Position numbers and translations under genes: made by a program. The notes below the pieces were generated by a model that ran no database searches, was not told the DNA's origin, and was given only the letters and a program-made list of their open reading frames with translations. A stretch of 64,000 bases of DNA from Pecten maximus (Eukaryota): NCBI RefSeq assembly GCF_902652985.1, contig NC_047019.1, positions 21,390,001 to 21,454,000 of the forward strand, written 5' to 3'. Within the stretch, counting starts at the first letter, position 1. Each line of letters begins with the position of its first letter. Below are positions 839 to 61,564 of this stretch, piece by piece.

Positions 839-2613
839 GCATTGTTATGCTGCGAGTGGATGGCATTCTGGATGGCATTGTCACTTCTTCCTTCTCAGAG
901 ACAGAAAATGTCCAGTTGTTCAACGATGATCCTCCCCAGGTCCAAGCTCCAATGGATGATCCTCCCCAGGCCCAAGCTTCAATGGATGATCCTCCCCAGG
1001 TCCAAGCTCCAATGGATGATCCTCCCCAGGTCCAAGCTCCAGTGGATGAAGGTAATTTTGATGTACATCTTTATGAAAGAGATTGGCATAGAAAGGGATC
1101 TATTTTATTCAAACTTAAGTTAGTTATCAGGTTCAGAGTAAATCTGACTTCATTTGTGTGACATATCTTCTCAGTGACAAGACAAAATAGGTGTTTGGCT
1201 GTGTGCTACACTGTCAGGTAATATCTACCTGTATGTGTTAAGGGTTGAATTAACAGGTATTTCTGGTTGCCATCGCTATTTCTTGAAAAGTACTGGAGGG
1301 ATATTTCTCAAACTTCATTGTAGGTTCCTCTTGGTTCCAGGTTGTGCCAATTCAATTTAGATTTTTGATCAGATAAACAAAATGGCCGACAGGCAGCCAT
1401 CTTAGATTTTGAAAATTAAATATTGTTATCACTATTCCTTGAAAAGTACTAGAGGAATAGTTCTCAAACTTCATGTGAAGGTTCCTATTGATACCAAGTT
1501 GTGACAGTTAAAATTTTTATCAGAAAAGCAAGTTTGTTATTGCTATTCTTTTGGAAAGTACCAGAGGGATGTGTCTCCAACTTCACATGTAGGTTCCACA
1601 TGTTCATGCTATCGGATCATTATTTAGAGGAAAAAGAAAGAAGGGAAAAGTAGATGTTCAATCTGACATAGAACCAATAAAGATCATTCAATGATGGCCA
1701 CCAAGATCCCTCTGGGATCTCTTGTTTTGTCAAAATATTAATATTTTGAAATATAGATTCTAACTCAGCCCCTGATACTAGTGTGATGTATAGTGACAAT
1801 GTTAGCTTTACTTTGTACCGATGGTGAACTCATCCCCTAATTCTAGTGTGAGGTATAGTGATTTACAGTGTGAGGCGAGCTTTGTACCGATGGTGAACTT
1901 GCCCCCGTAATGTTAGTGTGAGGTATAGTGATATACAATGTGAGGCGAGCTTTGTACCGATGGTGAACTCATCCCCTAATACTAGTGTGAGGTATAGTGA
2001 TATACAGTGTGAGGTATAGTGATATACAGTGTGAGGCGAGCTTTGTACCGATGGTGAACACATCCTCTAATACTAGTGTGAGGTATAGTGATATACAGTG
2101 TGAGGTATAGTGATATACAGTGTGAGGCGAGCTTTGTACCGATGGTGAACACATCCTCTAATACTAGTGTGAGGTATAGTGATATACAGTGTGAGGCGGG
2201 CTTTGTACCGATCGTGAACTCGCTCCCTAATTCTAGTGTGAGGTATAGTGATATACAATGTGAGGTGAGCTTTGTACCTTTGACCGTTCACTTGTCTTAC
2301 TACCAAAGATGCTTATAGATATATGTACATCAGTAAATGTATATTTAAAGCTTGACTGTGGAGATAAAATAACTCAGACATTGTATATCATTACATTTTT
2401 CACTTTCAATTTTCAGAACTGAAAAGGATTCAGGAAGAGAATGAAGAGTTAAAACAACGGCTATACTGTGGGATTTGTGAAGAAAATGAGGTGGCAATAC
2501 TTTTCCTACCCTGTTATCATATTCTTTGTTGTGCAGAATGTGCACCAGCATGTAAAGTCTGTCCGTCTTGCCAAAGTCGGATCACGGGTGTAGCCAAAAT
2601 CTATCTGTCTTAA
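839..2613 (+). CDS. IAP-like gene 1, 3' part (acidic repeat exon plus C-terminal C3HC4 RING exon); 5' exons not identified in window
   Basis: Exon 839-1051 (tgtag|GC ... GAA G|gtaatt) encodes ~4 copies of DDPPQVQAPM. Exon 2417-2613 (ttcag|AA, phase 1 matches) encodes ELKRIQEENEELKQRLYCGICEENEVAILFLPCYHILCCAECAPACKVCPSCQSRITGVAKIYLS*, a typical IAP coiled-coil plus RING terminus. The RING exon is absent from the ORF track because it has no ATG. Confidence 0.8.
1268..1726 (+). mobile_element. Degenerate Helentron-type non-autonomous element (same family as 5050-6840), 5'-truncated, intronic
   Basis: Diverged 155-bp-type units (ATGGCCGACAGGCAGCCATCTT) and the same 3' end CCAAGATCCCTCTGGGATCTCTTGTT. 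Confidence 0.75.
1765..2280. repeat. Intronic minisatellite, ~69-bp unit with an internally duplicated ~21-bp subunit
   Basis: Repeats of TAGTGTGAGGTATAGTGATATACAGTGTGAGGCGAGCTTTGTACCGATGGTGAAC..., about 6-7 copies. Confidence 0.9.
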
Positions 2614-2926
2614 ACAGCTATCCAAGGATAATTCTATATATATCACATCTTGGACGGGAATAAGAGAGATGGATGACATTAACAATTAAAGCTGACAGTG
2701 CAAGTTAAAAATTCATGATTTACAAGATATACACAGTTTCAGTATTCAGAAATTGTTTCTGAGATGTACCCATATAATGAGAGTATGTTCCATTCATTCT
2801 TCCTCTGTATACTGTGTAACATCGCTGTAATTCTGGTGATGTTGAGATGTTGTTGAGTTTGGAACGCTGAAAGGCTGGTTAGTGAAAAAGTTCTGTTGTG
2901 ATATTCTGCTCATTAGATAAAAACCG

Positions 2927-3127
2927 TCTATGGCCTGCTACGAGTTGTCAGGTGACGAACTAACTCTATGGCCTGCTACGAGTTGTCAGGTGACAGACTA
3001 ACTCTATGGCCTGCTACGAGTTGTCAGGTGAAGGACTAACTCTATGGCCTGCTAGGAGTTGTCAGGTGACGGACTAACTCTATGGCCTGCTACGAGTTGT
3101 CAGGTGATTGACTAACTCTATGGCCTG
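2927..3127. repeat. 38-bp tandem repeat (~5 copies) downstream of gene 1 stop, probably in the 3' UTR
   Basis: ACTCTATGGCCTGCTACGAGTTGTCAGGTGAnGGACTA repeated; period 38 (3001 to 3039). Confidence 0.9.
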
Positions 3128-4239
3128 GTAGTGGTTTATTTCATTACCATTTGCATGGAATACTCCAACTAGTTTTTCCAATCCTGAATTATACGTTTAT
3201 ATATATAAATAGTGTTCTACTTCAGACTTTGTAGACTAAGTGCCATTATCGTGATAGTAAAATGGCCCTTTAGATTTGAGACACATGTTAAGATGGGAGG
3301 AAATATATTTAGAGACTTTCTTGTTCAGGACAGGCTGTGAAATATGTGATAGACACTCATTCCTACTCCAAAGTGAATCATGGTGCTGATATGTCTGTGA
3401 TGTGTTTTGAAATGTTTTTAAACTGTTAAAAATGAAAAGTTGATGTGGAAACATGTTGGATATTGCGTGGGAGATAATAGCATCTTACATTGTGATTCAG
3501 TGAAATCCAGTGGACACTGTTTTTCATTTCAAATGATAAATGGAATCTATGGAAGAATTATTTTTGAAAAGTCTGTCCATAAGTAGTCGTTAGTACATAT
3601 GTCACAACGTTTTGTTAATTATGCTGTTAAGGTTAATTCAAAGCAAAATTTATATTTATAATGCATTTATTTGTAACCAAGTGGTCTTCATTATATGTTT
3701 ATAGGTTTTTTCAATTATAGGGCATAAAATGCACATGTTCTCACTATCTACACAGATGAGTGTTTTCTTAAATGGCCATTTCCTTTGATTCTTTTTCTTT
3801 GTTTAATTTTACATTTGTTTTCAAGATATTTATTTGAGTGTAATACAGTTACAATCAATATATTTGATTCTAGTCTATGCCCTAGTTATTTTAGATAAAT
3901 TTACATGGGAACTGATTTTCAATAGTGTGATTTATAATAGATTTTCAGTCAAGAAAAATATTTTAGATAATAACAATGAAAGTTATTAATATAAATGAAA
4001 TGATATATAGGTTTTAATTAGATAATTCTGTTAATGAACATAGGGACTAAACAACAACTGAATACATATTGACAAAATTAGATGATATGACCATACCTGG
4101 ACATTGTAAAGAGACTTACTTGCCAAAATATAATGATAATTTTGCATTTTATTGTTAAATTAAAGTTTATATCAGGACATATGTTATCATGTATACAACC
4201 TATGTACAACAAATTCATCTACTTTTAACATGGTACAGG

Positions 4240-5049
4240 GTCTGTCATCCTTTGTCTGTCCGTTCTTCAACTTTCCTTTACATCACTACTAGTCCTGAAT
4301 GCCTGAATGGATTTTGATGAAATTTGGTCTGGAGCATTATTGTGTAAAGGAGATATAATGTTGTGTAAATGAAGGGTGTGGCTCTCCTGGGGCCAGAGGG
4401 GCGGGGCCAAATAGGAGAAATTGAGTTAAATCATTAAAATCCCTACTATAGTCCTTAACACTTCAATGGTTTTTAGGTCACCTGAGACAAAATCTCAAGT
4501 GACCTATTCTAACTGCCTTTTGTCCATCGTCTATCCATAAACAATTTACATCTTTGACTTTTGCAAAATTGCTGAACCAAATTCATTAAAATTTGGCAGG
4601 AAGCTTCCAACCAAAAGGTCAACTAAAATTGAGAATTATATGGTCCCGACACCACCAGGGGCCTGAGGAGAGTCAAATTGAATAAAATTTTCAAAAATCT
4701 TCTTCTCAACTCCCCAGTATAGTAGAATAGGTACTCTTTTATCCAAATTTTGAATTGCGAAGACCCTGGGGTCTCAGTTTTGCTATCATTTGTTTGATTT
4801 CTAATGGAAATCATTTTAATTTTAACATTATCAGCATAGGATGACAGCTTAATGGTATGCACATGTTGGCATAAACTGACCCCCAGGAGCATATGGGTGG
4901 GGCCAAAAGTGGTCAAATTTACTGAAACTTCTTCTCAAGATCTAAATAAGGTAGAATCAAATACGCTCCATAGATAGAAGGGTCTTAAGGAGCTCTACCA
5001 AAATTGACTAATGCCTCTTGGTTGATGGGCATGATATAGTCAACCAAGG
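4240..5049 (+). mobile_element. Nested old Helentron-type repeat fragments
   Basis: Head TTTTAGGTCACCTGAGACAAAATCTCAAGTGACCTA (hairpin) at ~4470, degenerate GTCC microsatellite, and GGGGCC-rich diverged units. Confidence 0.5.
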
Positions 5050-6840
5050 TTTTTAGCCCACCATCATCAGATGGTGGGCTATTCAAATCGCCCTGCGTCC
5101 GTGGTCCGTGGTCCGTCCGTCCGTCCGTAAACAATTCTTGTTATCGCTATTTCTGAGAAAGTACTGAAGGGATCTTTCTCAAATTTCATATGTAGGTTCC
5201 CCTTGGTGCCTAGTTATGCATATTGCGTTTTGAGACCAATCGGAAAACAACATGGCCGACAGGCAGCCATCTTGGATTTTGACAATTGAAGTTTGTTATC
5301 GCTATTTCTGAGAAAGCACTGAATGGATCTTTCTGAAATTTCATATGTAGGTTCCCCTTGGTGCCTAGTTATGCATATTGTGTTTTGAGACCAATCTGAA
5401 AACAACATGGCCGACAGGCAGCCATCTTGGATTTTGACAATTGAAGTTTGTTATCGCTATTTCTGAGAAAGCACAGAAGGGATCTTTCTCAAATTTCATA
5501 TGTAGGTTCCCCTTGGTGCCAAGTTATGCATATTGTTATTTGAGACCAATCAGAAAACAACATGGCCGACAGGCAGCCATCTTGGATTTTGACAATTGAA
5601 GTTTGTTATCGCTATTTCTGAGAAAGTACTGAATGGATCTTTCTGAAATTTCATATGTAGGTTTCCCTTGGTGCCTAGTTATGCATATTGCGTTTTGAGA
5701 CCAATCTGAAAACAACATGGCCGACAGGCAGCCATCTTGGATTTTGACAATTGAAGTTTGTTATCGCTATTTCTGAGAAAGCACTGAAGGGATCTTTCTC
5801 AAATTTCATATGTAGGTTCCTCTTGGTGCCTAGTTATGCATATTGTGATTTGAGACCAATCAGAAAACAACATGGCCGACAGGCAGCCATCTTGGATTTT
5901 GACAATTGAAGTTTGTTATCACTATCTGAGAAAGTACTGAATGGATCTTTCTGAAATTTCATATGTAGGTTTCCCTTGGTGCCTAGTTATGCATATTGCG
6001 TTTTGAGACCAATCTGAAAACAACATGGCCGACAGGCAGCCATCTTGGATTTTGACAATTGAAGTTTGTTATCGCTATTTCTGAGAATGTACTGAATGGA
6101 TCTTTCTGAAATTTCATATGTAGGTTTCCCTTGGTGCCTAGTTATGCATATTGCGTTTTGAGACCAATCTGAAAACAACATGGCCGACAGGCAGCCATCT
6201 TGGTTTATTGGCAATTGAAGTTTGTTATCACTATTTCTGAGAAAGTATTTAAGGGATCTTTCTCAAATTGCATATGTAAGTTTCTCTTGGTGCCTAGTTA
6301 TGCATATTGCGTTTTGAGACCAATCTGAAAACAACATGGCTGACAGGCAGCCATCTTGGATTTTGACAATTGAAGTTTATCGCTATTTCTGAGAAAGTAC
6401 TGAAGGGATCTTTCTCAAATTTCATATGGAGGTTCCCCTTGGTGCCTCGTTATGCTAATTGCATTTTGAGATCAATTGGAAAAACAATATGGCCGACAGA
6501 CCGCCATCTTGGATTTTTACAATTGAAGTTTGTTATCTCTATTTCTCAAAGTACTGAATGGATCTTTCTCAAATTTCATAAGTAGGTTCCCCTTGGTCCC
6601 TTGTATTGCATTTTTGGACCAGTCTGTCCTGAAAACAACCTGGCAAACAAACAGCCATTATCGTTAAATCTCAAATTTCTTATATTGCTAGGATTCCTTT
6701 GTTTGAAAAGTACTGGAGGGATGTCTCAATTTGCACAGATTAGTAAAATGAAGGGAAAAGTAGAGAAAAGATCAATCTGACATGGAACCTATGAAGATCA
6801 TTCAATGGTGGGCGCCAAGATCCCTCTGGGATCTCTTGTT
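5050..6840 (+). mobile_element. Full-length Helentron-associated non-autonomous element (HINE/DINE-1/pearl-like) carrying ~10 x 155-bp tandem units
   Basis: 5' TTTTAGCCCACCAT-CATCAG-ATGGTGGGCTA hairpin and (GTCC)n microsatellite. Units have a 155-bp period (CATGGCCGAC at 5251, 5406, 5561, 5716, 5871...). 3' subTIR GGTGGGCG and terminal hairpin AGATCCC-TCT-GGGATCT followed by TT. Confidence 0.9.
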
Positions 6841-8704
6841 CATTTTTGAATAAACATTTTAAACAAAAATCTGTTGACTTGGGTCATCATTGCCTGGATT
6901 ACATAATCAGATATGTACTAGCTGCACTGCTATCCAAGAATATAAACAATAGTATGCCAATAAATGATATTGTCATCAAATGCAATACCTATATAATTAT
7001 GTAACAGTTGGATTTTACATACAACCCAGGTTCTTGATAATATTTAATAGTACCATGTTTTGAATATATAAACCACAAGAATTAGATACAGGTCCTGCAC
7101 TTATTCAATACTATCATTGGCAATATACAACAACTAGTAACCATGACTATTTACAGTACCACAGAATAAAACCATCTTCCACACTATAATATAAGAAGTA
7201 GCTAGAAATAAAAATACAACCAAATGAAGTACCAGCCAACGACTTTTAAAGCTCTATCCAACTTCCCACACACATACATAAAGTAGCACACTTTTCCATT
7301 CACAATGGTGCACATAGATTGGCATACATTGTTTTCAATATAAACTACACAATCATAATTACTCGCACACATTCCCAACCTTAATAATGCTCTCATACTA
7401 CATATATTTTACATTCTGAACACATATATTCACACTCGCAATTGATAATTCAACAAAATACCCTCATACATACACAAATACATTCTTCTGCTAAGGGACA
7501 TAACTCTCAAACAAAGGTACATTACTCGCAAAATCCTTTCAAAGATCTCGTCTTTTTCAAACGAGGCTGAGGTCAAAACAGCTAAAATCATAGACTTTCA
7601 TATTATCTCTATATCTGCCAACAAATCTATTGGTAAACTAATTTAGGAATAATGATGATATTAAAAAAATCAAATGATTGTAAAAGCTATCTTGTATTTG
7701 GTTACAGTCTTTGCCTAAGTTACAAATATGATAAAAGGTTTTTGAACACAATAACAGAGTTCTGGCGTGTAAATGATAAATCATGAGTTGGAATAGAAAC
7801 CTGGATTTACACCAGACCATTGAAAAAGTACAAGGAGAACAAGTCTGTAATGGAAGGTTAGGGATCTGTTTCATCGCCGACACCAGCCATGCAAGTCAAA
7901 GTAAAAATCCAGGTAGATATAAAATTCTCAAAATAAGGACAAGAATGATGACAACGGAACCACCACCGATAGTAACGAACACAACACGTGGAAGTTCAAA
8001 TCACACAAGGACTTCCTAATGAAATCATGAGGTCACGCATAAAAGTTTTCACGGACTCCAGAAATCTGATACCTCATGTTCTTTGTCCACTTGAAAGAAA
8101 TATAAACTTTATTAATTTAAGAACAATTGCGAAACAAGTTAAAACAATTTATATTAATCACTTGTTGGCCTGGATGGAAACACGCAAGGTGTATCACGTA
8201 TTTTGTTCTCTAATTGGCCAACATAAATAATCACGGATCAACCATTATCATCAGATAGGAGTTATGTTTGTGTAGATACGATGACATGTCGGCACACCGG
8301 GAGTGATGTTTACCTCCAATTCTGGCCTCTTGAAAACGTGACGCAAAGATCTCGAGTCCTTGGTCCAGTTGTTAAAAAAGTGATAAGCCTAATCAATTGA
8401 TTAATGGAAAACTAAAGCTCATCTGTCCTTTATTTGAAAACATGTGTGTAAATAGTTTGAAGAGTGTTAGAGGGTTGTAAAATATTGCAAGCTAATTTTA
8501 CCCGAAATGATATAAAAGGATTTTCAATGGTTAAAGTGTGATTAGTCTATACAGAGACCTATATACTAAATTTTGCATGTGTATTATTTTCCCCATTCTA
8601 TCTCCACTCAGGTAAACTAGTCTACACATTTTGTATCCACGTCGTCCTGTCTAGAAGGGCTGACTGAATAGCGACAAGGTTCTCCCATTTACAGTTTTCA
8701 CATC

Positions 8705-11042: not shown

Positions 11043-12876
11043 ATGACTGACCAAAATCCACAACCACCAAAGAGAATACGAGAAGAGAATAGAAACGAGA
11101 ATCCAAGAGAAAAACGTGTATCAGACTCAGGAGAAATGATGAAAAGAAGAAATGAAAAGAGAAAAGAATAAGACAACAAGCCTGTCCTTGGCAATGATAG
11201 ATTCTATGTACAGTCAGATGAGAAGGAAACCAAAGTATTCAACAAGACAAAACAAGGCGCAAAATACCGACAAAACAAGGGCAAAATACCGACTAAACAA
11301 GGGCAAAATACCGACAAAACAAGGGCAAAATACCGACAAAACAAGGCGCAAAATACCGAGCAAAACTACTACTGAATAGCAAGATATCAAATGTCACAAA
11401 CACAGAACTTTTGAATCATGTTTTGGATTTATTTCTGAGAACTTATGAAGATACAGTACCAGAAGATAACATTGAAAGTATTCAATTTAGACAGTATCTT
11501 CATTGCGAGAAAGATTCCACACAGCAAGCAATTTACTTTGTTACGGAATCAACCATCAGAAACATTTGTGCTGGAATCCAATTACACAGAAAGGAATGTG
11601 CAAAACTTGTTGATGTTAAAGACGTGCAACGTAGTGGACATGCTGCAAAACTGACTTTTATGTGTGAAGATAAGCATACCTTCAAGTGTGACACATCTCC
11701 TCATATCGAAGGAGGGAAGTATGTAGTCAATTTGAGGATGCTTCATTCCCTACTAGGAAGTGGACTACGTTACACTCGATATGAACGAATCGGAAATGCT
11801 GCTAATTTCGGTGTCTGCCCAGAGTACTACTTTGAAGGCATTCACGAGATATACTGTGACGTTACATCTGAGGTTACAAAAGAGTGTATCAAAGATGCTA
11901 CAAGTGATGAAGTTCCGCAAACAATATTGCAAGTAGAAGATGGAGACTATGAGGGAATTGACATTCTTACTGACGCGCGACATGGATGGAGAAAAAACGC
12001 AGCACAATCGGATATTATTGCTCTGGGATGTATGACACACAAAGTTGTCGGTGCTGTCACAGTAACACGTGATGATGATCCTGTCAGCCAAAGACATGAG
12101 CTTATTGGAGCGAAAACTTTATATAAGCATTTTGATGATTGTGGTGTTAATGTGAACATTCATGGACATGACAGGAACGCATCAATCAACAAATACTTAG
12201 AGGCAGAACAGCCATCTGTAACGAATGCCAACCACACCTGGCATGCTGCAAAGGGGGTAGCAAAAATCATCAAAAGTTTAACAAGTGGACCAAAGAAAAT
12301 GCATGGAAAAACATGGCATGGAGAATTATCTGACAAAGCAGCATCCATAAAAACTCGTTGTTACTATGCGATGAGACATTGTGAAAAGTCTGTGGAAAAA
12401 TTACGGATGCTGCTGGCCAATGTTGTGCAACATTACAAGGACATTCATGATGGTTGTTTGCCGAGTTCCCGCTGCCACACGGACGAAAATTATAAGCCAT
12501 CTAAGGTTATCATCAAGGAATCTGCTGCAGAGAAACTCCTTTTGCAGGCAATCCATGGCTTGCAAATTTACAGAAATGCAGAGGACTATATACATTATAT
12601 TGACACGCATTATGTTGAATCCTTTAATAATGCAGCACTGGTATACCATGACAAGAGAATTTTATTCTGTAATAAGGAATACCAGAGGCGTACAAACATG
12701 GCAGTTCTAGATTGGAACCAAAATGTTGATCGTGACTTCACATCAATAACTTGGTATGAGGATCCCCGCAAACCGCGATAAGATCAGGGCATAAAAACTT
12801 AACTCCAAAAAGTTATACACACCTGGAAAGACTTTGGAACAGTTTTATTTCATACTTATTAAGTTCATATTTCTGA
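11043..12876 (+). pseudogene. Kolobok-type DDE transposase, inactivated (main open segment 11411-12781)
   Basis: Motifs TDARHGWRKN, HDRN, (D>H)TWH, C/H cluster (HYKDIH..C...SRC), THYVESFNN..VYHDKR..F...Y.RR..MAVLDWNQNVDR. The N-terminus from ATG ~11043 is broken by a stop and ~21-bp duplications (11250-11360). A premature TAA at 12779-12781 is followed by in-frame RSGHKNLTPKSYTHLERLW. Confidence 0.75.
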
Positions 12877-14465: not shown

Positions 14466-14788
14466 CACGATCTAGCAGAGGGTTACTTGATTACGCACAT
14501 CAATCGATATTTATATGCGAGTGTGTACAACGTGGATACGTATCGCGTAATGACGGTAGGTAGACATGCGACTGAGTTGATTTATACATTGTAGACGGAA
14601 CACGAATGTATGTAAGAGGTGCACAATATTCATACTTATTTGACACAATCAGGTACGTACCAACGTGAAAAGCTAGCTGCCCTTACAATTGCTGATTTTT
14701 GCTTTTTAATAACTTATATAAGGGATGTATGTCAATCCAGTGTATTTTGAGTATGACACCTTCGAATGATAGTAACTACATATATGTA

Positions 14789-15620
14789 TAGCCCGAGTTT
14801 TCTCTGGCCCTGTCACCATGTCTGGTGTAGGGCCAGAGCGCACTACTATATGAAAACGTGGAATTATCCGACACCGTTTGGTGTCGCTAAGAATTTGATG
14901 CAAAAACAATAAAATCGGGTGTGACATAACACCTACCTTACATATATGGATAAATGAGATATTTATGTACCCCAAAACACCCATTTAGTCTCATCTAGGT
15001 GTTTTATTTCGTCCGTACAGGCCCTCGCTTTACGCTAGTCAAAATTTCATACTGTTGACCCGCCATTTTGTAAGTGACAGTACGACTAACCACCCAAATC
15101 GGAACGCAATGGACCGAAAAGACCACATATCATTTATTGTGTTTTTCTTCTTACAAAGTTTAAATTATGAAAACTAAGTTGATTATTTCCCAAAAGATGT
15201 TATATTCCATTAAAAAAATCATTATTTATAAATTATAAGCGGTAAAATATATAAAAGTAAATGTTGTATTTTTTTTTCTTTTCGCTCCATCGCGCACAGA
15301 TTAGGGTAATTAGGCGGACCGCGACCTACATAGTTAGCAATATGGCGTCGAGTCAAGTATGAAATTTTGACTAGCGTAAAGCGAGGGTCTATACGGACGG
15401 AATAAAACACCTATATGAGACTAAATGGGTGTTTTGGGGTACATAAATATCTCATTTATCCATATATGTAAGGTAGGTGTTATGTCACACCCGATTTTAT
15501 TGTTTTTGCATCAAATTCTTAGCGACACCAAACGGTGTCGGATAATTCCACGTTTTCATATAGTAGTGCGCTCTGGCCCTACACCAGACATGGTGACAGG
15601 GCCAGAGAAAACTCGGGCTA
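14789..15620. mobile_element. 832-bp non-autonomous foldback DNA transposon with long TIRs and a 9-bp TSD (AcademH-like or MULE-like)
   Basis: Termini TAGCCCGAG...CTCGGGCTA. The outer ~200 bp of the TIRs are essentially identical and similarity extends to ~280 bp or more. Perfect TSD ATATATGTA at 14780-14788 and 15621-15629. Confidence 0.92.
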
Positions 15621-16514
15621 ATATATGTACAGTTTTGTTCTCTTTAGTTTCGTGTGATGTCGCTTATACTATTTTAGTACTACCTACTCGGAAAGGATAT
15701 GCGCTATTTACAATTGATGATGAATGTAAGAAATGCTTGTTTTTTTAATAACTTTTACAAATGATGTATGAATCCAATGTATTTCGAGTTTGACAGCTTC
15801 GAGTAACATAACTTTTGAGTATGACAGCTTCGAGTAACATATATACAATATATAATTTCTTGGTTTTCAGGTCACCACAAAGGGTCCATCTGGGGCTCGA
15901 ATTCGTTTTGAAAACAAATAAGCACAGTAACCATCGTTTAAAATGAAAGAAAAGACAAACATCTAGAAAAGACAAGTGGTCAGAGAATAAAGAAAAGGTA
16001 AGATGTATGCTTTAATATATCTTCTAAACAATTACAAAAACAAAAATTACTAATCAATTTCATATAAATCAGGCTTTAGGGGAGCTTTGACTTGTTTTTT
16101 CCTGTTTTACCATTCAACTTGAACTTGGATCTTCACTGTATCAGTTTTACTGTTGTATTTTTGATTGTGCATAACAGAGCCCTTGTGCATAGCGATGGAC
16201 GTATAATAATATATATAATATATTTGAGATTTATTTATGGGTTTTACGTCCGCTATTATCATACGGCCTTACGGTCTTTCAGCTGACGATTGATGAGATA
16301 TGCCTTACATGTATTTATAGTAACACCATTGACGAAAGGAGAAAGGAGACAACAGGATAACTCATGCCCTGACCGAGTGGCGCAGCTAGGCGAGTTCGTA
16401 TGTATTGTATATTTACATCAGCATATACTATGATAACTTTAATTGTTTTACATAAAAAAAATCCTTATATTTTGATCTCTTAGCACAATAATGCAAGGAA
16501 CCTGCTACTTAACA

Positions 16515-18783: not shown

Positions 18784-19919
18784 ATGAAGAAATCTACCAA
18801 TGACTTGCAGGCCCGGTGCGGGCAGGAAAGAGCAGACTCAAATGGCACGGATTCCACAACACCCCCTGTTGAAGCAGATATGCAGCATGACATTCACAGC
18901 ACTAGGTGTTCTTTTATGAGGAAACAAACCGGCCAAGTCTATCTTGACAGCATTCAGGTCGGATTGCCCACGGTATGTGTATTATTTAATACAGTCAGGG
19001 CAAATTTTCTTATAAGCACCGTTGTAATATACAGATGGTTTTACCGATAATTCGTATCAAAAAATTACATCAGTTTGCGAAAACGTGTAATTTACATGCT
19101 TCAAACGTGTTGAGGCTGCGATTATAATATGTTTCATAACTACTCATAGCCTGACGCTCAGATGGATCCCCTGGATGATCAGGTGTCAGAACAGCCTGAC
19201 GCTCAGATGGGTCCCATGGATGATCAGGTGTCGGAACAGCCTCAGAGTACCCAGGAAGAATTAGGTAATATTCTGCTGTTTATTTAGTGTATAATAATCA
19301 CCGATATATTATATCTAATTGAAAGAAGACGGACATTGATATTTTTTTTTACTTTTCTAATTTGACAGCTGATCTCCCGATATTCGCCGTGTTAGTATAC
19401 TTAACTTATTTGAATATTTATACCGGATGTTATTAGGTTTGATTAATTAGGTCGTTACAATTAATATGTGCAAGAGGACAGGTTTGTAATATATCCATAT
19501 AACAACATATTATTATTGTTATTCAAACCATCATAGCATAATCATTAATTGATTGATTGAAGGAATTTCACCGCCCGTCGACAAATATGGTCATCTTGGT
19601 CAGATATAATGAGTACAGGCGTGATTACAGACATATAAGAATGTTATAAACATTACATTTTACTTGTGAACATAGTTTTATAATACTTCATTACTGACAC
19701 AGTCTGTAAAATTATTTGTCAGATATGAAGCTGTTGTTGGAGGAAAACAAAAGACTGAAGAAACAAAGACACTGCTGTGTGTGTGAGAAGGAAGAACGTA
19801 AGATAATGTACCTACCCTGCACACATTTGGCCTGCTGCGAAATCTGTGATCGGGCTCAGCTTATATGTCCCATCTGTAAAGAAAAAATCAAAGGAAGTAG
19901 AACAATATTTTGGTCATAG
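18784..19919 (+). CDS. IAP-like gene 2: BIR-deleted, RING-only derivative (~165 aa)
   Basis: Coding exons 18784-18972, 19150-19264 and 19723-19919 with phases 0 and 1 consistent. The first exon fuses paralog exon A (MKKSTND...PPVEAD) to the end of exon B (MQHDIHSTRCSF...GQVYLDSIQ). RING CCVC..C.H..CC..C...CPIC..IFWS* is intact. Confidence 0.8.
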
Positions 19920-21541: not shown

Positions 21542-24500
21542 ACTTACAACATTATACTGACACCATGTCGGAGTAGTACTTACAACATTATACTAACACC
21601 ATGTCGGAGTAGTACTTACAACATTATACTAACACCATGTCGGAGTAGTACTTACAACATTATACTAACACCATGTCGGAGTAGTACTTACAACATTATA
21701 CTAACACCATGTCAGAGTAGTACTTACAACATTATACTAACACCATGTAGGGATAGTACTTACAACATTATACTTACACCATGTCAGAGTAGTACTTACA
21801 ACATTATACTAACACCATGTCGGAGTAGTACTTACAACATTATACTAACATCATGTCGGAGTAGTACTTACAACATTATACTAACATCATGTCGGGATAG
21901 TACTTACAACATTATACTAACACCATGTCGGAGTAGTACTTACAACATTATACTAACACCATGTCGGAGTAGTACTTACAACATTATACTAACACCATGT
22001 CGGAGTAGTACTTACAACATTATACTAACACCATGTCGGAGTAGTACTTACAACATTATACTGACGACACCATGTCGGAGTAGTACTTACAACATTATAC
22101 TAACACCATGTCGGAGTAGTACTTACAACATTATACTAACACCATGTCGGAGTAGTACTTACAACATTATACTAACACCATGTCGGAGTAGTACTTACAA
22201 CATTATACTTACACCATGTCGGAGTAGTACTTACAACATTATACTAACACCATGTCGGAGTAGTACTTACAACATTATACTAACACCATGTCGGAGTAGG
22301 TACTTACAACATTATACTAACACCATGTCGGAGTAGTACTTACAACATTATACTAACACCATGTCGGAGTAGTACTTACAAGCATTATACTAACACCATG
22401 TCGGAGTAGTACTTACAACATTATACTAACACCATGTCGGAGTAGTACTTACAACATTATACTAACACCATGTCGGAGTAGTACTTACAACATTATACTA
22501 ACACCATGTCGGAGTAGTACTTACAACATTATACTAACACCATGTCGGAGTAGTACTTACAACATTATACTAACACCATGTCGGAGTAGTGCTTACAACA
22601 TTATACTAACACCATGTCGGAGTATTACTTACAACATTATACTAACACCATGTCGGAGTAGTACTTACAACATTATACTAACACCATGTCGGAGTAGTAC
22701 TTACATTATACTAACACCATGTCGGAGTAGTACTTACAACATTATACTAACACCATGTCGGAGTAGTACTTACAACATTATACTAACACCCGTTGGAGTA
22801 ATTACTTACAACATTATACTAACACCATGTCGGAGTAGTACTTACAACATTATACTAACACCATGTCAGTATAGGACTTACAACATTATACTAACACCAT
22901 ATCGGAGTAGTACTTACAACATTATACTAACACCATGTCGGAGTAGTACTTCCAACATTATACTAACACCATGTCGGAGTAGTACTTACAACATTATACT
23001 AACACCATGTTGGGACAGTACTTACAACTGTAACTATGGACGAGCTTGAAAGTGCGAGCATAGTGAAGAATGACGCAAAGCTGATATACAATATATACAA
23101 TATTTATTTTTTACAAAATATACATGTCTTTTTGTTATTTTATCAAAATAAAACAAAATACACAATGTCACGCTAATTATTATATACAGCGTACTAGTAT
23201 ACTATACGATAAATCTAACTACAATCGCAAGACACAAGACCCTAATAAAGTTTCTGATCACAACCGCAAATAGTCACAAGTATGTATGTACATCGAACAC
23301 TCGGTGAAGTTATGGGATCCGTGGTCTGTAGTCCGCGGTCGGTCACGCCGTCGCCGTCTGTTCCACCATGTCGATGTCTGCCAATGACACAATCTGTCCA
23401 CAATCCGAAGTAAAGTACAGGCAGCAGATAGCTCACACAGAAACCATCATCCAACTGCGTGCAACAAATAAGGCGTACAAAACCATAAGGTATGTTCACA
23501 AAGAACAGTTACAAATGTAAATAAGACTCACACAGAACCCAGCATAATGTTGTCCACACAGGACGTAAGCTTGTGCTCACAAAGAGCAGTTACAATACAA
23601 ATTTGTTCACTCAGAACCCAGGACGCTGCCCACACAGGAACGTCAAGGAAGCTTCAAAGCCTTTACAACGATTGTTTGGCAGTGTCATCAGATAGCTCGC
23701 TCCACCGTCTGAATTTTGAGCACAATCTGTCGTTTCTGCTCTGAAGTTTATCGAACATGGTCATCTACATGTCTCTGATTGTAATCATAGTGGTTATACT
23801 AATGTCTAAAATCGAACCCGGACAACCGAATTCCGTATTTAAAATACTCAGATGATGAAAATATAAAAATATAGAAAAATACATACGTGACCGTAACAAC
23901 AACATTATACTAACACTATGTTGGGACAGTACTTACAACATTATACTAACACCATATCAGAGTAGTACTTACAACATTATACTGACACCATGTTGGGATA
24001 GTACTTACAACATTATACTAACACCATGTCGGAGTAGTACTTACAACATTATACTAACACCATGTCGGAGTAGTACTTACAACATTATACTGACACCATG
24101 TTGGGATAGTACTTACAACATTATACTAACACCATGTTGGGATAGTACTTACAACATTATACTAACACCATGTCGGAGTAGTACTTACAACATTATACTA
24201 ACACCATGTCGGAGTAGTACTTACAACATTATACTAACACCATGTCGGAGTAGTACTTACAATATTATACTTACACCATGTTGGAGTAGTACTTACAACA
24301 TTATACTAACACCATGTCGGAGTAGTACTTACAACATTATACTAACACCATGTCAGAGTAGTACTTACAACATTATACTAACACCATGTCGGAGTAGTAC
24401 TTACAACATTATACTAACACCATGTCGGAGTAGTACTTACAACATTATACTAACACCATATCAGAGTAGTACTTACAACATTATACTGACACCATGTCGG

Positions 24501-25297
24501 AGTAGTACTTACAACATTATACTAACACTATGTCGGAGTAGTACTTACAACATTATACTTACACCATGTCGGAGTAGCACTTACAACATTATACTAACAC
24601 CATGTCAGAGTAGTACTTACAACATTATACTTACACCATGTCGGAGTAGTACTTACAACATTATACTGACACCATGTCGGAGTAGTACTTACAACATTAT
24701 ACTAACACTATGTCGGAGTAGTACTTACAACATTATACTTACACCATGTCGGAGTAGCACTTACAACATTATACTAACACCATGTCAGAGTAGTACTTAC
24801 AACATTATACTTACACCATGTCGGAGTAGTACTTACAACATTATACTTACACCATGTCGGAGTAGTACTTACAACATTATACTAACACCATGTCGGAGTA
24901 GTACTTACAACATTATACTAACACCATGTTGGGATAGTACTTACAACATTATACTAACACCATGTCGGAGTAGTACTTACAACATTATACTAACACCATG
25001 TCGGAGTAGTACTTACAACATTATACTAACACCATGTCGGAGTAGTACTTACAACATTATACTAACACCATGTCGGAGTGGTACTTACAACATTATACTA
25101 ACACCATGTCGGAGTAGTACTTACAACATTATACTAACACCATGTCGGAGTAGTACTTACAACATTATACTGACACCATGTCGGAGTAGTACTTACAACA
25201 TTATACTAACCCCATGTTGGAGTAGTACTTACAATATTATACTAACCCCATGTTGAAGTAGGACTTACAACATTATACTAACACCATGTCGGAGTAG
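21542..25297. repeat. 36-bp satellite array (~80 copies) interrupted by a solo LTR
   Basis: Unit ACTTACAACATTATACTAACACCATGTCGGAGTAGT spans 21542-23028 and 23899-25297. Confidence 0.97.
23029..23898 (-). mobile_element. 870-bp solo LTR of an LTR retrotransposon
   Basis: TG...CA termini (TGTAAC...GTAACA), perfect 5-bp TSD ACAAC (23024-23028 and 23899-23903), AATAAA on the minus strand near 23105, no internal coding region. Confidence 0.85.
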
Positions 25298-31540: not shown

Positions 31541-34500
31541 ATGAGGAAATCTACTAATCACTCGAAGGCCTATTGCGGTCAGGGAGAAGTCGACTCATCT
31601 GAAATGTGCTCATCTCCACCAGTTGAAGTTGATCTCCTAGTGACAACCTGTAAGAACTCCTTTACGTGTAGGTCTGGTGATATGTCCCTCGACGTCGACG
31701 CCCTGGCTAATGCAGGATGGTGTTGCATAGGTATAAAGACGACTTATCATAATATGACTACAATATGCTCTAATGTACACATATCACAACCAGCATTAAC
31801 AACGTTGATTTAAATCACATGTTTACTGACCAAGCTGTTAGAGCAATTGACATATCTTTATTCTGAAAAAAATGCTTAAGGTAATTAATTCTTTGTCTAT
31901 ACCTATGTCAATATCTTTTACACATATTTTGAATATTTTTCATTTTCCCTATCTGAATCAGCTGTTGTTGCGTATACCGGTTAGTTTTGTAAAATTGTTA
32001 AACGAAATTACGTGACTATGTACTGTTTTTATTATCTGGCGTATTCTTCACCTGAGCGTCATCTTAAATCAAATATCCAAACAACTTTCCTGATATCCAC
32101 ATGCTTATAATTGTATAGTCAATCAAACCAAACGTGAAAAATGATTGCAACGCCCATTGTACCTCATATTATTATTTGATTAATGAGAAAATGTAAGTAT
32201 GCATATTGCTAAAGATGCACGTTATCTATGTTAACTCAGATATATATATTTATTACATTTTTACCAGTGAAATATCAAAAATTATTCATTCTATAAAAGT
32301 GATATTTTTCACTAGTGAAAAATATCATATTTTACTAGTGAAAAATATCACTTTTGCTGATTTGACCAATCAAATTAATGATTAGAAAATACCAAAATAA
32401 TTGACCAATCAGAAAGCCTGACATATATGTCAGCACCTGGACAGGGGAAACTACTTTTTTTGTTTATATTAGGCCTAGTTAGCATACGGGGTAGGTTTTT
32501 CGTTGATAAAAAATGTAATAAACAGAATATCTAACAGTGTCTTCAGTAATACCAAATATATTTCACTCGTGCGGCTAATATTTTGATATTTTTCACTCGT
32601 GCTGCGCACTCTTGAAAAATATCAAAATATTAGCCCCACTCGTGAAATATATTTGGTATTACTGAAGACACTGTTAGATATCCTCTATATCATGTTAAAT
32701 GCTTATATGTAAAATGTTTGTGTACTCCGTAAATATTTGTAACTAGTAAATATATGATTATCTTTTAGAAGATGGACGTATCGAAACATTGTGCTGTCAG
32801 GCTGTCTGGGACAACACGGCTATAGAGGATTTTTGGATGCAACATGTCATTGGTAGTCCTGGATGTCCTTTCCTGAGGCAACAGAAAGGTCAAGCCTACA
32901 TTGATAGTATCCAGGCTGTTTTGACTACAACCACAGATGTGCGTTTATTGAAGTGAAATGAAATGAAATGGCAATGATAAGATTAAAATGTTGTTTATCA
33001 TGGATTAAAAACATATATTGTTAATACGTTTAGATTTACCTTACAAACTTCTAAATTATCTAGAATGCGATTACGATAAACCACCTGACTACCGATAGAT
33101 ATGCTTATTAGAAAATTAAATTTGTTTATGTGTAGGGCGAACCTGTGTCGGAACAGCCTGGAAGCCAGAGGAGACCTCAGGATGAACCAGTGTTGGAACA
33201 GCCTGACGGCCAGATGAAATCCAAATATGAACCGGGGTCGGAACAACCTGACTTCCATATGAGTTCCCAGGGAGAATTAGGTAATTATCATGGCTGTGTC
33301 ATACCGTGGTATGCTATATCTTGGTTATGTTATATGTGAGTTTCACCGACAAATATTTTTAGTTTACCAGTTTGACGTCATATCTCCGTTTCTAATTAGT
33401 TGACGGGACTTTTGTGATTACTCCATTTCTTCTTCTCCTTTATCTGATCGGTCAACCAAGATGGCTGCCACGGCCTCTGATTGGTTAAACATTTTGAAAA
33501 TCTAATTAGCTATAACTGTTTTACTATTAAATGGAATTCTTAAATACTTAATGGGAGATGGTTACCAGATGCACTATTCATGTGTGAAAAAACGTTGAAG
33601 TGAAAAAGCAAATGGCCACCCTAGAGATGAGTTCTAATTTCGTAACTACAGTTTCATATCTTCGCAAAATGGCAAGCATTTCTTGGCTCTTTGCAATTGA
33701 TTGATTGAAATTTAAATATTTCAATGAAAATTATATACGAGTATTAGGGGACTGCGAATTCGAATGGGTTTCGTTGTCATAGCAACTTCACGGATGTTTC
33801 TGATTGGTCAGAATTTGGATATTGTTTTATCTGAATGAAAATTGGTATATATAGATTTTAGGGAATTGCAAATTTAACCGCACGGATTTCGTTGACATAG
33901 CCGCCACATTTCCATCGTAGGGGGTTGTTTCGGGGACTTCGGTAATGGTTTCCTATTATAATTAGTATTTGTTATTGTTATATTTGTGTCAGGTATGGCT
34001 CTACGATAAGAAATTGCAAATCTTAATTGAATCTTAAGATTGAAAGATCCGCATTAGGAATGCTCTCGCCAGTTAAAATTTGCACAAAAGTCGTGACAAG
34101 AATGCTGGATCGGCAAGAGACGGCTTTCCTATAAAGTATTGTTCTTTGATACAATCATGTCATTAGGAAAACAGACATAACAAACATAGACAGTTTTGGG
34201 CAGGGCTGTATTGATACACCGGTGCACCTCGATATAATGAGCCACGATAGACGTGTAGAATCGCATATACATCGATTGTTAACGATAAAGTCATCCATTA
34301 CCTGTTATGATAGGCACATCGGCACATTAGAACAATTAGTCTCAATATAATTAATATTTGCATTCCGTTAAAGTGCAGTTTACTACACCGCCATATTTCA
34401 TCTATTTGGAACTTTTTCGTACAACAGGTAATGTCAGTCGTTGATCGTTGTCACTGGAGTGTTTACAAACATGGCAAACAATTGCACGTAACAGGATATA

Positions 34501-35215
34501 CAAGCGGCACCGGTATCCTTTAGATCGCGTGTTTGGTCAAAATTTGGATTTTAGCAACGAAAGAAAATGATAAACGTTTGTATCAAATCAATTGTAGTGC
34601 GTAAAATTTGTCATGCGGAGATGCGCTACACAGAAGGGACGATAAACATGTTATTCTATTTGATACTTTCGATACAATGACCTATAATGGTTGACCACCT
34701 TAGCTAAAAATAAATCAACAGAACAAGACATTGACACCCAATTTCAGTATTTATTCAGGTTAACTTTAAACATCATAAAATGACCTACCAATGGACATAC
34801 AAGTCGATTTCAACTTTGTAATGAAAAAAAGGTAGCACAAATCATTGTTCTTCTTACTGGTGTTTATTTAATTCATTGCTGTTATATATCATATATATAT
34901 AATATATATTATATCATCAATATAAAGTGTCGTGTCGTGAGTGAGTGATGTAGTGATCGTAGCTCAGTGTGTCGTTTCAACGCAATAAGCATTACAGTTT
35001 ACTGATATCTTCTGTATTTGTCAGAAAAGTTATGGGAGGAAAACGATCTGATGAAGAAAATGAACAACTGCTTTGTGTGCGAGGAGGAACCACGTAAGAT
35101 AACATACCTACCCTGTAAACATCTCGCCTGCTGCGGAATCTGCGATCTGGCTCAGCTTAAATGTCCAATCTGCAAGGAATCAATCAAAGACCGTTTCACA
35201 ACATTTTTGTCATAG
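31541..35215 (+). CDS. IAP-like gene 3: degenerate BIR + acidic linker + RING
   Basis: Exons 31541-31730, 32769-32938, 33136-33280 and 35025-35215, all GT-AG, phases 1/0/1, open frame. BIR-like CKNSF...LANAGWCCIEDGRIETLCCQAVWDNTAIEDFWMQHVIGSPGCPFLRQQKGQAYI. RING ends TFLS*. Confidence 0.88.
32240..32690. mobile_element. Intronic non-autonomous element with a long terminal palindrome (possibly Crypton-type)
   Basis: ~70-bp arms ATATCTAACAGTGTCTTCAGTAATACCAAATATATTTCAC... / ...GTGAAATATATTTGGTATTACTGAAGACACTGTTAGATAT (32528-32681), recurring CACTCGTG/CACTAGTG cores and tandem GACCAATCA. Confidence 0.65.
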
Positions 35216-55473: not shown

Positions 55474-56266
55474 ATGATGCAAGCCTTGGATGACGTTGCT
55501 ACTACAAATATACTTGACAGTCGTGGACGGGAAGCAAGCTTTAGGGAGTGGCCTCATTCAAACATTCCTACAGGACCACTGGTGGTAGCTGGATTTTCCT
55601 ATACGAACTCAGGATCATCGACAGTAAAATGTATAGCATGTGGATTGGAGGTAGACGCTTCAAGTTTAAACGGGACAAATCCTTATGTTTTCCATGTGTT
55701 ACGGTCTCCAGAATGTTCGTTCTTCTATCCAGCCAATCCTTATAGGCGGGAGTCGGACCGCAGACAGACCTTCCTCTATTGGATAGGATACGATGGGGCC
55801 CCGGATGTTGATGATCTAGTTTCGGCTGGATTTTATGTAGCAGGTAGGCCTATGACATCATCTTTGCAAACTTTTAACCACTGTGCTATAGAAAACCTAA
55901 ATACGTCTACACTGATGGATATATTATTTATCCACGATAGAATTATCTGCATCAGCTAAAACACCTTCAAAAGATCAGAAGTATGCTTTTTAAACAATAA
56001 ATTTGTCAAGTTATATAAAACAGATTATTTTCTGTCATACTGAAACTATTTTTGAGATAAAATTCCCACATATGTATATAAGAAAAAATGTTTTTTTCTT
56101 TAATGCAGAATTTGGAGAGGACAAACTTCGATGTTTCTGTTGTGATTTAAATATATTGTCTCCGAATCAAACGGCAGAATTAAGACAGGAACACGCTCGA
56201 CTGAGCCCGAACTGTGTCTTTATAAGGAACTGGATGTTGCAGGAATCAAACGGTCGGGGCCGGTAA
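55474..56266 (+). CDS. IAP-like gene 6: two tandem BIR domains, no RING (~175 aa)
   Basis: Exons 55474-55843 and 56109-56266 (phase 1). BIR1 REASFREWP...AGFSY...VKCIAC-x17-H-x6-C. BIR2 RRQTF..W...LVSAGFY...LRCFCC-x16-H-x6-C. Stop follows shortly after. Confidence 0.88.
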
Positions 56267-56945
56267 AGACATAACAGTTTTCTTTGCCGCGTCCGCCTGA
56301 AAATCATTGGGACAAAGACGGATATTTGGCTTTTATTTTTGTTAGAATATCTTTGTTTTTATTGCCATAAAAGGTAAGGGAAAGTTTTGATAAGATCATA
56401 ATTTCTGCAGATGCCCTTGAGGTCTCACGAGTCTGCGTTATAAAGCGGAACTTATCATTTCAATCATATTATTTGTAATATTTAAATATTCATACGATTA
56501 TGTCTATTTGACATGTATGTTCTGAACTGAATGATATATATTATCATTTTTTTCAGTAACATATGCTGAAAAAACGGTATAATTACAATAGATATGCATT
56601 ATTAAATTTTGTTGTACATTTAAATCCAGATGAAATAAAACAATTTCAAATATAAGACATTGTCTTTACTCTCATTTATTTTTCAATATTACCAGACGTT
56701 GTATAATCTCAAATGTTGATGCCGTTACCAGGCCAACTACAAAATTAAACAGAGTGCTAAACGTGTAAGTATTTGGTGAATTCTTCCTCTTTAATGATAT
56801 TTGTTATTCCTTACATTAATGAAAAAATAGTTTGTCTCTAATTTCGTTTTGATGACATAGGTTGCAAATTCCATTTTCTCTAGGGATATTATTAAACCTG
56901 CCATGTTCGAAATAAAGTAACAGTATTTTTCTTAAACTAAATCAA

Positions 56946-60230: not shown

Positions 60231-60582
60231 CTGAATAAGTACAGACCATGTACATTGTATAGTTATTGTGCGGTCTGAATAAGTACAGACCATGTACATT
60301 GTATAGTTATTGTGCGGTCTGAATAAGTACAGACCATGTACATTGTATAGTTATTGTGCGGTCTGAATAAGTACAGACCATGTACATTGTATAGTTATTG
60401 TGCGGTCTGAATAAGTACAGACCATGTACATTGTATAGTTATTGTGCGGTCTGAATAAGTACAGACCATGTACATTGTATAGTTATTGTGCGGTCTGAAT
60501 AAGTACAGACCATGTACATTGTATAGTTATTGTGCGGTCTGAATAAGTACAGACCATGTACATTGTATAGTTATTGTGCGGT
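60231..60582. repeat. Perfect 44-bp tandem repeat x8
   Basis: CTGAATAAGTACAGACCATGTACATTGTATAGTTATTGTGCGGT; 352 bp equals 8 units. Confidence 0.97.
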
Positions 60583-60818
60583 CCTCGAGTGACAATGATT
60601 TTATAACACCCGATAGACTATATGACATAAGATCTGAAGGCCTCACATTAACATTGGTTAAATATGTTTAAAGTTTTAACAGTGTGATGATATTTTGACC
60701 TTGGCCTCGGACTCTGTAATACGGACTTGATTAACATTTGTAGCCTAGGTGTTATTATTCCTAAACTCAGACTCTGTCTTTACAATGTAATGTTTCCAGT
60801 GTGCCGTTATCAGGAAAA

Positions 60819-61564
60819 ATGGATTTCAAGAAGACATTCAACAGACGGGAAGCAAGCTTCAGACAATGGCCCCATCTGAACATTCCAACGGGACCACCCA
60901 TGGTAACCGGATTTTCCTATACCAACTCCGGATTATCTACAGTAAAATGTACATCCTGTGGATTGGAGGTAGACGTTGCAAGTTTAAAAGGGACTAGTCC
61001 TTATGCCTTACATGTTTTACGATGTCCTGGATGTTTGTTCTTCTATCCAGACCATCGTTACAGACTGGAGTCGGACCGCAGACAGTCCTTCCTGTACTGG
61101 ATAGGACACAATGGGGCCCCGGATGTGGACGATCTAGTTGCGGCTGGATTTTATGTAACAGGTCATATGTCTTTTTTTTTTTATTTATTCTACATGTAAA
61201 ATCTGAGGTAACCCCCGGAATATCGAGGAAGGTGTTGTAGATAAAAATATTATGCTCACGTACTTTTGTAATTTACTGTACAAATGAAAATAGTTTTAAA
61301 AAATCAATGAAAAAAATGATGAAACAAGTTAACTAGGAAATACGGCTTTTAGCAAAACATGTAAATGCATGATTAAAAGCATGTGTTTTGTTCTTCACTA
61401 CAGATTGTGACGAGGACGAACTTCGATGTGTTTGTTGTGATTTAAGTCTATCGTCACGGAATCAAGCGACTGACATCAGACAACGACACGCTCTCCTGAG
61501 CCCGAACTGTGTCTTCATAAAGAACGCAATATTCCGGGACTCAAACGGTGGGGGCCAGTATTGA
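60819..61564 (+). CDS. IAP-like gene 7: two tandem BIR domains, no RING (~167 aa), paralog of gene 6
   Basis: Acceptor at 60799; exons 60819-61161 and 61404-61564 (phase 1). The second exon encodes DCDEDELRCVCCDLSLSSRNQATDIRQRHALLSPNCVFIKNAIFRDSNGGGQY*. Confidence 0.86.

What the first reader, a model, noticed from the sequence alone, without database searches (positions are those of the whole stretch)
839..61564. Seven-gene IAP array split into RING-only, degenerate-BIR+RING and BIR-only modules
Seen: all genes are co-oriented. None of the six complete models is a canonical BIR(s)+RING IAP: gene 2 has RING only, genes 3-5 have an altered BIR plus RING, and genes 6-7 have two BIRs and no RING. 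Established: IAPs are strongly expanded in bivalves, and IAP RINGs act as dimers. Inference: the cluster may encode a combinatorial set of decoys and adaptors, with BIR-only substrate sinks and RING proteins that heterodimerise with and tune or degrade canonical IAPs.
Basis: partly seen in the sequence, partly recalled or inferred. Interest (0 to 1): 0.7.

Follow-up and report, generated by a model that had tools for sequence, protein, structure and literature searches.

The report
Scallop array of truncated IAP genes
This is a real cluster of seven scallop cell-death regulator (IAP) genes, six of them short forms that probably descend from one longer family member and whose RING versions likely act as non-catalytic partners of full-length IAPs; mixed clusters like this are already known in clams and oysters.

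Summary
Gene 1 starts at least 8.8 kb upstream and is an ordinary multi-BIR+RING gene. Gene 5 is spliced in three studies; dN/dS is 0.39-0.49 and below 1; both short types recur in Argopecten, and the BIR-only type also in Ylistrum. Trees trace genes 3-7 to BIR domains of one multi-BIR+RING subfamily on the same chromosome. Genes 3-5 carry Thr at the first zinc cysteine, matching the published oyster 'NZBIR' definition. Genes 6-7 lack the peptide-binding groove residues, so 'substrate sink' is not supported. All five RINGs have lost three residues that cIAPs use to activate E2~ubiquitin, and four keep the tail aromatic supplied in trans, an MDMX-like pattern; heterodimers were not tested. Signs of turnover: gene 2's RING evolves near neutrally, and an allele deleting part of gene 4's RING occurs in 2 of 4 runs. 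Mixed-architecture tandem arrays under purifying selection are published for the hard clam. Verdict: new variant of a known kind, moderate interest.

The parts
839..1051 (+). Gene 1, acidic repeat linker exon; the gene begins at least 8.8 kb upstream (BIR exons at L001:1175-1341, 7379-7529, 7816-7949 or 7985)
   Evidence: Open 302-314 aa 3' model, one intron with a GC donor; both BIR second halves pass the Pfam cut-off; not tested with RNA
2417..2613 (+). Gene 1 RING exon (Glu/Cys/Gln at the three E2~Ub-activating positions, tail Tyr)
18784..19919 (+). Gene 2, RING-only, 166 aa; exons 18784-18972, 19150-19264, 19723-19919; first exon fuses the start of exon 1 to the end of exon 2 of a gene 3-5 type gene
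31541..35215 (+). Gene 3, Thr-type BIR + RING, 231 aa; exons 31541-31730, 32769-32938, 33136-33280, 35025-35215
   Evidence: only unspliced contigs on the RING exon were shown
40676..42121 (+). Gene 4, Thr-type BIR + RING, 209 aa; exons 40676-40847, 41025-41185, 41436-41535, 41925-42121; only member keeping the groove Trp and Asp
   Evidence: contigs on exons 1, 2 and 4
41675..42017 (+). Stretch missing in another allele (replaced by 6 letters); removes the acceptor and first CxxC of gene 4's RING exon
   Evidence: joint in X5 and X1, 2 of 4 runs, two studies
45066..45097 (+). End of an untranslated first exon of gene 5
   Evidence: same loose end in X3, X4, X5, placed at 45066
48046..49603 (+). 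Gene 5, Thr-type BIR + RING, 196 aa; exons 48046-48235, 48528-48694, 49001-49037, 49407-49603
   Evidence: all three coding introns spliced in 3 of 4 runs
55474..56266 (+). Gene 6, BIR-BIR, 175 aa; exons 55474-55843, 56109-56266
   Evidence: only unspliced contigs in 1 of 4 runs
56696..56764 (+). Candidate extra exon that could join gene 6 to gene 7 in frame (371 aa, four BIRs, still no RING)
   Evidence: open frame computed; no RNA joint seen
60819..61564 (+). Gene 7, BIR-BIR, 167 aa; exons 60819-61161, 61404-61564
   Evidence: only unspliced cover in 1 of 4 runs

Best explanation
This is a tandem array of IAP genes whose six short members probably arose by truncation of one scallop multi-BIR+RING subfamily, and whose RING-bearing members likely work as non-catalytic partners that dimerise with active IAP RINGs and tune their ubiquitin-ligase output. 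Shown: gene structures, splicing of gene 5, dN/dS below 1, recurrence in other scallop genera, and the residue changes. Inferred from trees: genes 6-7 kept two neighbouring BIRs of the parent (here BIR-a and BIR-b) and lost the rest; genes 3-5 kept BIR-b and a RING; gene 2 then lost most of the BIR. Inferred from cIAP and MDM2-MDMX structures: the RINGs would bind E2~ubiquitin poorly but could lend the C-terminal aromatic to a partner, so a heterodimer would have one active site instead of two and the altered BIR could retarget it. Genes 6-7 would be groove-less, type I-like scaffolds that compete for the parent's signalling partners, not caspase or Smac sinks. Individual copies turn over (birth and death).
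For: BIR tree without four long rows: genes 3-5, the Argopecten orthologue, BIR2 of genes 6-7 and the parent BIR-b form one side at 97/93; BIR1 of genes 6-7 groups with BIR-a of the gene at C5:19.88 Mb at 99/95 (98/94). RINGs of genes 2-5 plus Argopecten P0009 group at 99/97 (93/92). dN/dS: RING exon 0.39 (p=1e-4), BIR of genes 3-5 0.45 (p=0.002), genes 6 vs 7 0.49 (p=0.004). Two-BIR-only relatives of 166 and 178 aa in Argopecten and Ylistrum. 5 of 5 array RINGs lack all three of cIAP1 Met575, Leu599 and Arg606 equivalents, against 6 of 28 other RINGs of this genome and 8 of 144 fetched RINGs; 4 of 5 keep Phe/Tyr at Phe616. Roles of these residues: PMC6349121, PMC3172091; MdmX binds no E2, contacts ubiquitin through its tail and has Lys at the linchpin (PMC6465955).
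Against: No binding or ligase evidence exists here. XIAP has Tyr at the linchpin and is an active ligase; the Mdm2 442-443EK swap alone left p53 degradation intact. Val573 and Ile604 equivalents are kept in genes 2-4. Gene 5, the best-supported transcript, lacks the tail aromatic (Ile), as do several otherwise canonical RINGs of this genome. The parent subfamily's RINGs also lack these residues, so the loss may be old and tied to another E2. The BIR grouping was unresolved with all 41 rows, the alternative grouping with BIR-c was not rejected (p-AU 0.12), and array-plus-parent RINGs have only 75/71 support. Gene 2 branch dN/dS 1.78, not different from 1 (p=0.52); gene 4 has a RING-deleting allele in 2 of 4 runs.
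Confidence: 0.45

Rival explanations
1. Genes 2-5 are active ligases that use a different E2 or a lysine linchpin, acting as homodimers on their own substrates.
For: All eight zinc ligands, tail length (13 residues) and the Val573 equivalent are kept; Lys at the linchpin is invariant in 5 of 5 clade members including Argopecten; XIAP lacks the Arg; 14 of 144 fetched RINGs have Lys there.
Against: Gln at the Leu599 position occurs in 1 of 144 fetched RINGs, the orthologue itself; the L585A/I590A double mutant abolishes E2 binding in cIAP2.
Confidence: 0.25
2. The array is redundant duplicate material under weak constraint, on its way out, with little specific function beyond fold maintenance.
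For: dN/dS of 0.4-0.5 is relaxed; BIR2 of genes 6-7 (0.64) and gene 2 pairs (0.65, 0.70) do not differ from 1; gene 2 branch 1.78; RING-deleting allele of gene 4; missense alleles in genes 4, 5, 6.
Against: Both short types persist in other scallop genera; gene 5 branch dN/dS 0.20 (p=6e-5); six of six frames are open; a neutral RING would keep all ligands and no stop in only 5% of simulations at 20 substitutions, 21% at 10.
Confidence: 0.22
3. One reading: genes 6-7 soak up caspases or Smac-like antagonists through the BIR peptide groove.
For: Their second BIR descends from a type II-like BIR-b; all zinc ligands are intact in 8 of 8 BIRs.
Against: 0 of 8 keep the groove Trp or acid, which 10 of 10 parent BIR-b and BIR-c domains keep.
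Confidence: 0.05
4. Genes 6 and 7 are one four-BIR transcript, so the count is six genes.
For: An in-frame 371-aa join through exon 56696-56764 is possible with GT-AG introns; four-BIR IAPs are reported in scallop and clam.
Against: No RNA joint; no protein of 215 aa or more matched (a weak search that also missed P0016); relatives in two genera are annotated as two-BIR proteins.
Confidence: 0.1

Closest known systems
Hard clam six-gene IAP tandem array (Song et al. 2021, PMC7831173)
   Same: Co-oriented IAPs in about 90 kb, three architectures in one array, Ka/Ks 0.08-0.45, BIR split over two exons, RING in the last exon.
   Different: That paper required a BIR, so a RING-only member would not be counted; the passages read give no residue-level analysis of RING or groove.
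Oyster NZBIR (Witkop et al. 2022, PMC8917759)
   Same: Thr at the first zinc cysteine.
   Different: Oyster NZBIR replaces the N-terminal type I BIR of long BIRC2/3-like proteins that keep a type II BIR. Here it is the only BIR, is type II-derived, has a one-residue deletion, and keeps two adjacent cysteines in 4 of 4 sequences. Common origin with the oyster domain was not tested.
MDMX in the MDM2-MDMX heterodimer
   Same: Acid after the first CxxC and Lys at the linchpin, tail aromatic kept.
   Different: Not an MDM family protein (RING matches cIAP2 at E 6e-12, MDM4 at 1e-3); heterodimer and inactivity untested; position matching to Mdm2 is by cysteine spacing from recall.
BIRC7/ML-IAP-like (one BIR + RING) and cIAP1 BIR3/RING
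   Same: Architecture of genes 3-5; gene 4 model overlays cIAP1 BIR3 at 1.4 A over 86 columns and cIAP2 RING at 0.9 A.
   Different: First zinc Cys lost, groove eroded in genes 3 and 5, E2~Ub-activating residues changed.

Membership tests
IAP family | At least one BIR domain | tested here: met
   Genes 1, 4, 5, 6, 7 pass the Pfam cut-off; gene 3 aligns with 4 and 5 but was not scanned whole
IAP family (gene 2) | At least one BIR domain | tested here: not met
   RING only; IAP-derived by the RING tree
Canonical BIR | Cx2C...H...C zinc ligands | tested here: not met
   Not met in genes 3-5 (Thr) and gene 1's last BIR (Ser); met in genes 6-7
NZBIR (Witkop 2022) | Thr at the first zinc cysteine | tested here: met
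   3 of 3 array BIRs and Argopecten P0009; 0 of 20 other parsed BIR halves of this genome
NZBIR (Witkop 2022) | Loss of zinc binding | not testable with these tools
   AlphaFold2 model has no metal; adjacent Cys pair, His and last Cys are invariant in 4 of 4
Type II BIR | Peptide-groove residues (Trp 10 and acid 6 before the His; Trp/His 3 after) | tested here: not met
   0 of 8 in genes 6-7 and orthologues; genes 3 and 5 lack the Trp; gene 4 keeps Trp and Asp. Choice of positions follows XIAP BIR3 from recall
Type I BIR | Binds TRAF2/TAB1-type partners without a peptide groove | not testable with these tools
   Groove absent by sequence; no binding data
IAP-type RING E3 | C3HC4 ligands and about 13-residue C-terminal tail | tested here: met
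   5 of 5
IAP-type RING E3 | cIAP1 Met575, Leu599, Arg606 equivalents | tested here: not met
   0 of 3 kept in 5 of 5 RINGs; not an absolute requirement, since XIAP lacks the Arg
MDMX-like pseudo-ligase | Tail aromatic kept for use in trans | tested here: met
   4 of 5; gene 5 has Ile
MDMX-like pseudo-ligase | Heterodimerises with an active RING and has no activity alone | not tested
   Needs biochemistry

The most novel reading that the evidence does not exclude
Scallops have split one multi-BIR IAP into separately encoded modules kept across genera: MDMX-like pseudo-ligase RINGs carrying a BIR whose zinc site is rewired to an adjacent Cys pair, and groove-less BIR-BIR scaffolds. Together they would form a dedicated tuning layer for the expanded IAP ligases, and a real share of bivalve 'BIR+RING' IAPs (6 of 28 other RINGs in this genome show the same triple loss) would be regulators, not ligases.
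Probability: 0.25. Interest if true: 0.68.

Novelty: new variant of a known kind. Interest (0 to 1): 0.42.

Why it matters
Bivalve IAP expansions are usually counted by domain architecture. If many of their RINGs cannot activate E2~ubiquitin, those counts overstate ligase number and hide a regulatory class. The array gives small (166-231 aa) proteins in which three open points are directly testable: whether 'non-zinc' BIRs really lose zinc, whether IAP pseudo-ligases exist, and what groove-less BIR-only proteins bind. If the copies are merely drifting, it is one more ordinary bivalve IAP cluster.

Tried and rejected
Structure of gene 6 from a four-sequence alignment failed (mean pLDDT 37.5) and was not used. 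Search for longer proteins containing gene 6's first exon: none among 639 candidates, weak. RNA contigs gave no cover of most of genes 6-7 in 3 of 4 runs and none of gene 3's first exons; contigs do not show absence. In one search a repeat at about 32.2-32.7 kb filled the joint table (15 shown, 24 hidden), so no splice joint of genes 3-4 was seen. Gene 1 as parent of genes 2-5: its last BIR also lacks the first Cys (Ser), but trees neither group nor reject it (p-AU 0.24); left open. A 413-codon open frame at L002:8286-9524 with a faint BIR-like stretch may be gene 1's long first exon (E 1e-7 to one IAP; no Pfam hit); not resolved. First gene 1 joins had wrong boundaries, corrected. Atlas look-up of the 11.3 kb frame was not available. 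Earlier scan findings: none. Literature searches for pseudo-ligase IAPs in molluscs found nothing relevant ('decoy' and 'linchpin' 0 times in PMC13159474); the library lacks most subscription papers, and no supplements were read, so gene-level tables for this species may already list these genes.
Full report
Setting. The window is G000:C5:21,390,001-21,454,000, in a 918-Mb genome with at least 137 BIR matches. Database proteins identical to genes here are labelled Pecten maximus by their source.

Observation. Seven co-oriented genes are present. Six complete models have open frames and GT-AG introns: gene 2 (166 aa, RING only), genes 3-5 (231, 209, 196 aa; altered BIR + RING), genes 6-7 (175, 167 aa; two BIRs). 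Pfam agrees for the five that were scanned whole. Local profiles run over the window plus 80 kb on each side found the same five RINGs and no further one. Gene 1 extends at least 8.8 kb upstream and reads BIR-BIR-linker-RING over 302-314 aa; its start is not resolved.

Expression. Gene 5's three coding introns are spliced in 3 of 4 runs from three studies, one on record as RNA and two guessed to be RNA, with a shared upstream untranslated exon. Gene 4 has contigs on exons 1, 2 and 4; no joint was visible because a repeat crowded the table. Genes 3, 6 and 7 showed only unspliced contigs. Co-expression is untested.

Selection. With a simple codon model of my own on short alignments: RING exon of genes 2-5 dN/dS 0.39 (63 codons, p=1e-4 against 1), BIR of genes 3-5 0.45 (81 codons, p=0.002), genes 6 vs 7 0.49 (166 codons, p=0.004; BIR1 0.23, BIR2 0.64 and not significant). 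By branch (four uncorrected tests): gene 5 0.20 (p=6e-5), gene 2 1.78 (p=0.52), genes 3 and 4 0.50 and 0.45 (not significant alone). An allele that removes 41675-42017, including gene 4's last acceptor and first RING CxxC, appears in 2 of 4 runs from two studies. So constraint is real but loose, and copies turn over.

Conservation. Argopecten has a Thr-BIR + RING protein (P0009) with the same RING changes, and Argopecten and Ylistrum have two-BIR-only proteins of 166 and 178 aa, 66% and 58% identical to gene 6. The two Argopecten proteins share a contig length, but so do other IAPs, so adjacency is not shown.

Origin. The nearest relative of gene 6's first BIR is in a multi-BIR+RING gene at C5:19.87-19.89 Mb (protein P0016). 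In the BIR tree that pairing has 98/94 support with all 41 rows and 99/95 after dropping four long rows. In the second tree the altered BIR of genes 3-5, the second BIR of genes 6-7 and the subfamily's BIR-b group at 97/93; in the first tree this was unresolved. RINGs of genes 2-5 and P0009 group at 99/97; joining them to the subfamily's RINGs has only 75/71 (six near-duplicate rows were left out). The likeliest history is two truncations of one subfamily, BIR-a+BIR-b and BIR-b+RING, each then duplicated. Gene 2 arose from the second type by an in-frame deletion from exon 1 into exon 2; reads were not used to confirm this junction.

The altered BIR. The first zinc Cys is Thr in genes 3-5 and P0009, against 0 of 20 other parsed BIR halves of this genome (25 loci, 23 parsed). 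This is the NZBIR definition in PMC8917759. One residue is deleted nearby, and an adjacent Cys pair, the His and the last Cys are invariant in 4 of 4, so zinc may still be bound. The gene 4 model folds as a BIR (block pLDDT 83-95; 1.4 A to cIAP1 BIR3), but its alignment was mostly canonical IAPs, which biases it. Only gene 4 keeps both the groove Trp and Asp.

The BIR-only genes. All zinc ligands are intact, but 0 of 8 BIRs in the four proteins keep the groove Trp or acid, which 10 of 10 parent BIR-b and BIR-c domains keep. By the type I/II distinction (PMC3972657) they should not bind caspase or Smac peptides. That removes the 'substrate sink' reading; competition for a signalling partner of the parent is the inferred alternative.

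The RINGs. cIAP1 uses Met575 and Val573 on the E2, Arg606 as linchpin, and Phe616 from the other subunit on ubiquitin (PMC6349121); cIAP2 L585A/I590A blocks E2 binding (PMC3172091). Genes 2-5 have Glu/Gln, Gln and Lys at Met575, Leu599 (cIAP2 Leu585) and Arg606; gene 1 has Glu, Cys, Gln; four of five keep Phe/Tyr at 616. Of 28 other RINGs of this genome, 14 keep all three and 6 keep none; of 144 parsed RINGs among 149 fetched proteins (chosen by likeness to gene 4), 92 keep all three and 8 none. MdmX shows the same logic (PMC6465955). Against it: XIAP lacks the Arg, gene 5 lacks the tail aromatic, and the parent subfamily shares the loss.

Comparison with print. A co-oriented six-gene clam array with three architectures and Ka/Ks below 1 is in PMC7831173 (passages). 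Scallop clusters are in PMC7893105 (passages). Domain loss after duplication across animals is in PMC13159474 (abstract, section 8, first part of section 13, passages). PMC8917759 was read as abstract and sections 7, 8, 15. PMC3172091, PMC6349121, PMC6465955 and PMC3972657 were read as passages. No supplements were read. I found no mention of pseudo-ligase IAP RINGs in molluscs, within the library's limits.

Verdict. The array as such is a known kind; the residue-level picture (type II-derived NZBIR as sole BIR, MDMX-like RINGs, groove-less BIR pairs, all kept across scallop genera) is a new variant with clear tests. Interest 0.42.

Noticed in passing
window 11297-12778 (+): 494-codon open frame with no significant Pfam hit and 102 matches across the genome, several 93-96% identical; probably a recently active DNA transposon between genes 1 and 2 (family not identified).
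   Followed up: partly
window 21542-25297: 104 copies of a 36-base tandem repeat giving long spurious frames.
   Followed up: no
window 14777-15629 and 32518-32690: Self-inverted stretches; the element around 32.2-32.7 kb in gene 3's first intron is very high-copy in all four runs, probably a MITE.
   Followed up: no
window 5138-6601: 9.5 copies of a 155-base repeat with related copies upstream and downstream.
   Followed up: no
G000:C5 2.69, 2.71, 10.55, 19.26, 19.27, 19.87 Mb: RINGs of the multi-BIR parent subfamily all lack the linchpin Arg yet keep the tail aromatic; three more RINGs at 15.33, 15.79 and 26.01 Mb have Gly there.
   Followed up: partly
G000:C5:19,274,283 and 2,693,502: Two RING exons with identical protein sequence 16.6 Mb apart on opposite strands; recent duplication or an assembly duplicate.
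   Followed up: no
window 43852-43951: 100-base assembly gap between genes 4 and 5; could hide further copies.
   Followed up: no
window 49603-51370: Gene 5 has a 3' untranslated region of about 1.8 kb covered in all four runs, with many alleles.
   Followed up: no
window 925-1049, 19148-19242, 33139-33252: The acidic linkers of genes 1-4 are built from 30- or 45-base repeats that vary in copy number; the Argopecten relative has a long repeat linker too.
   Followed up: no
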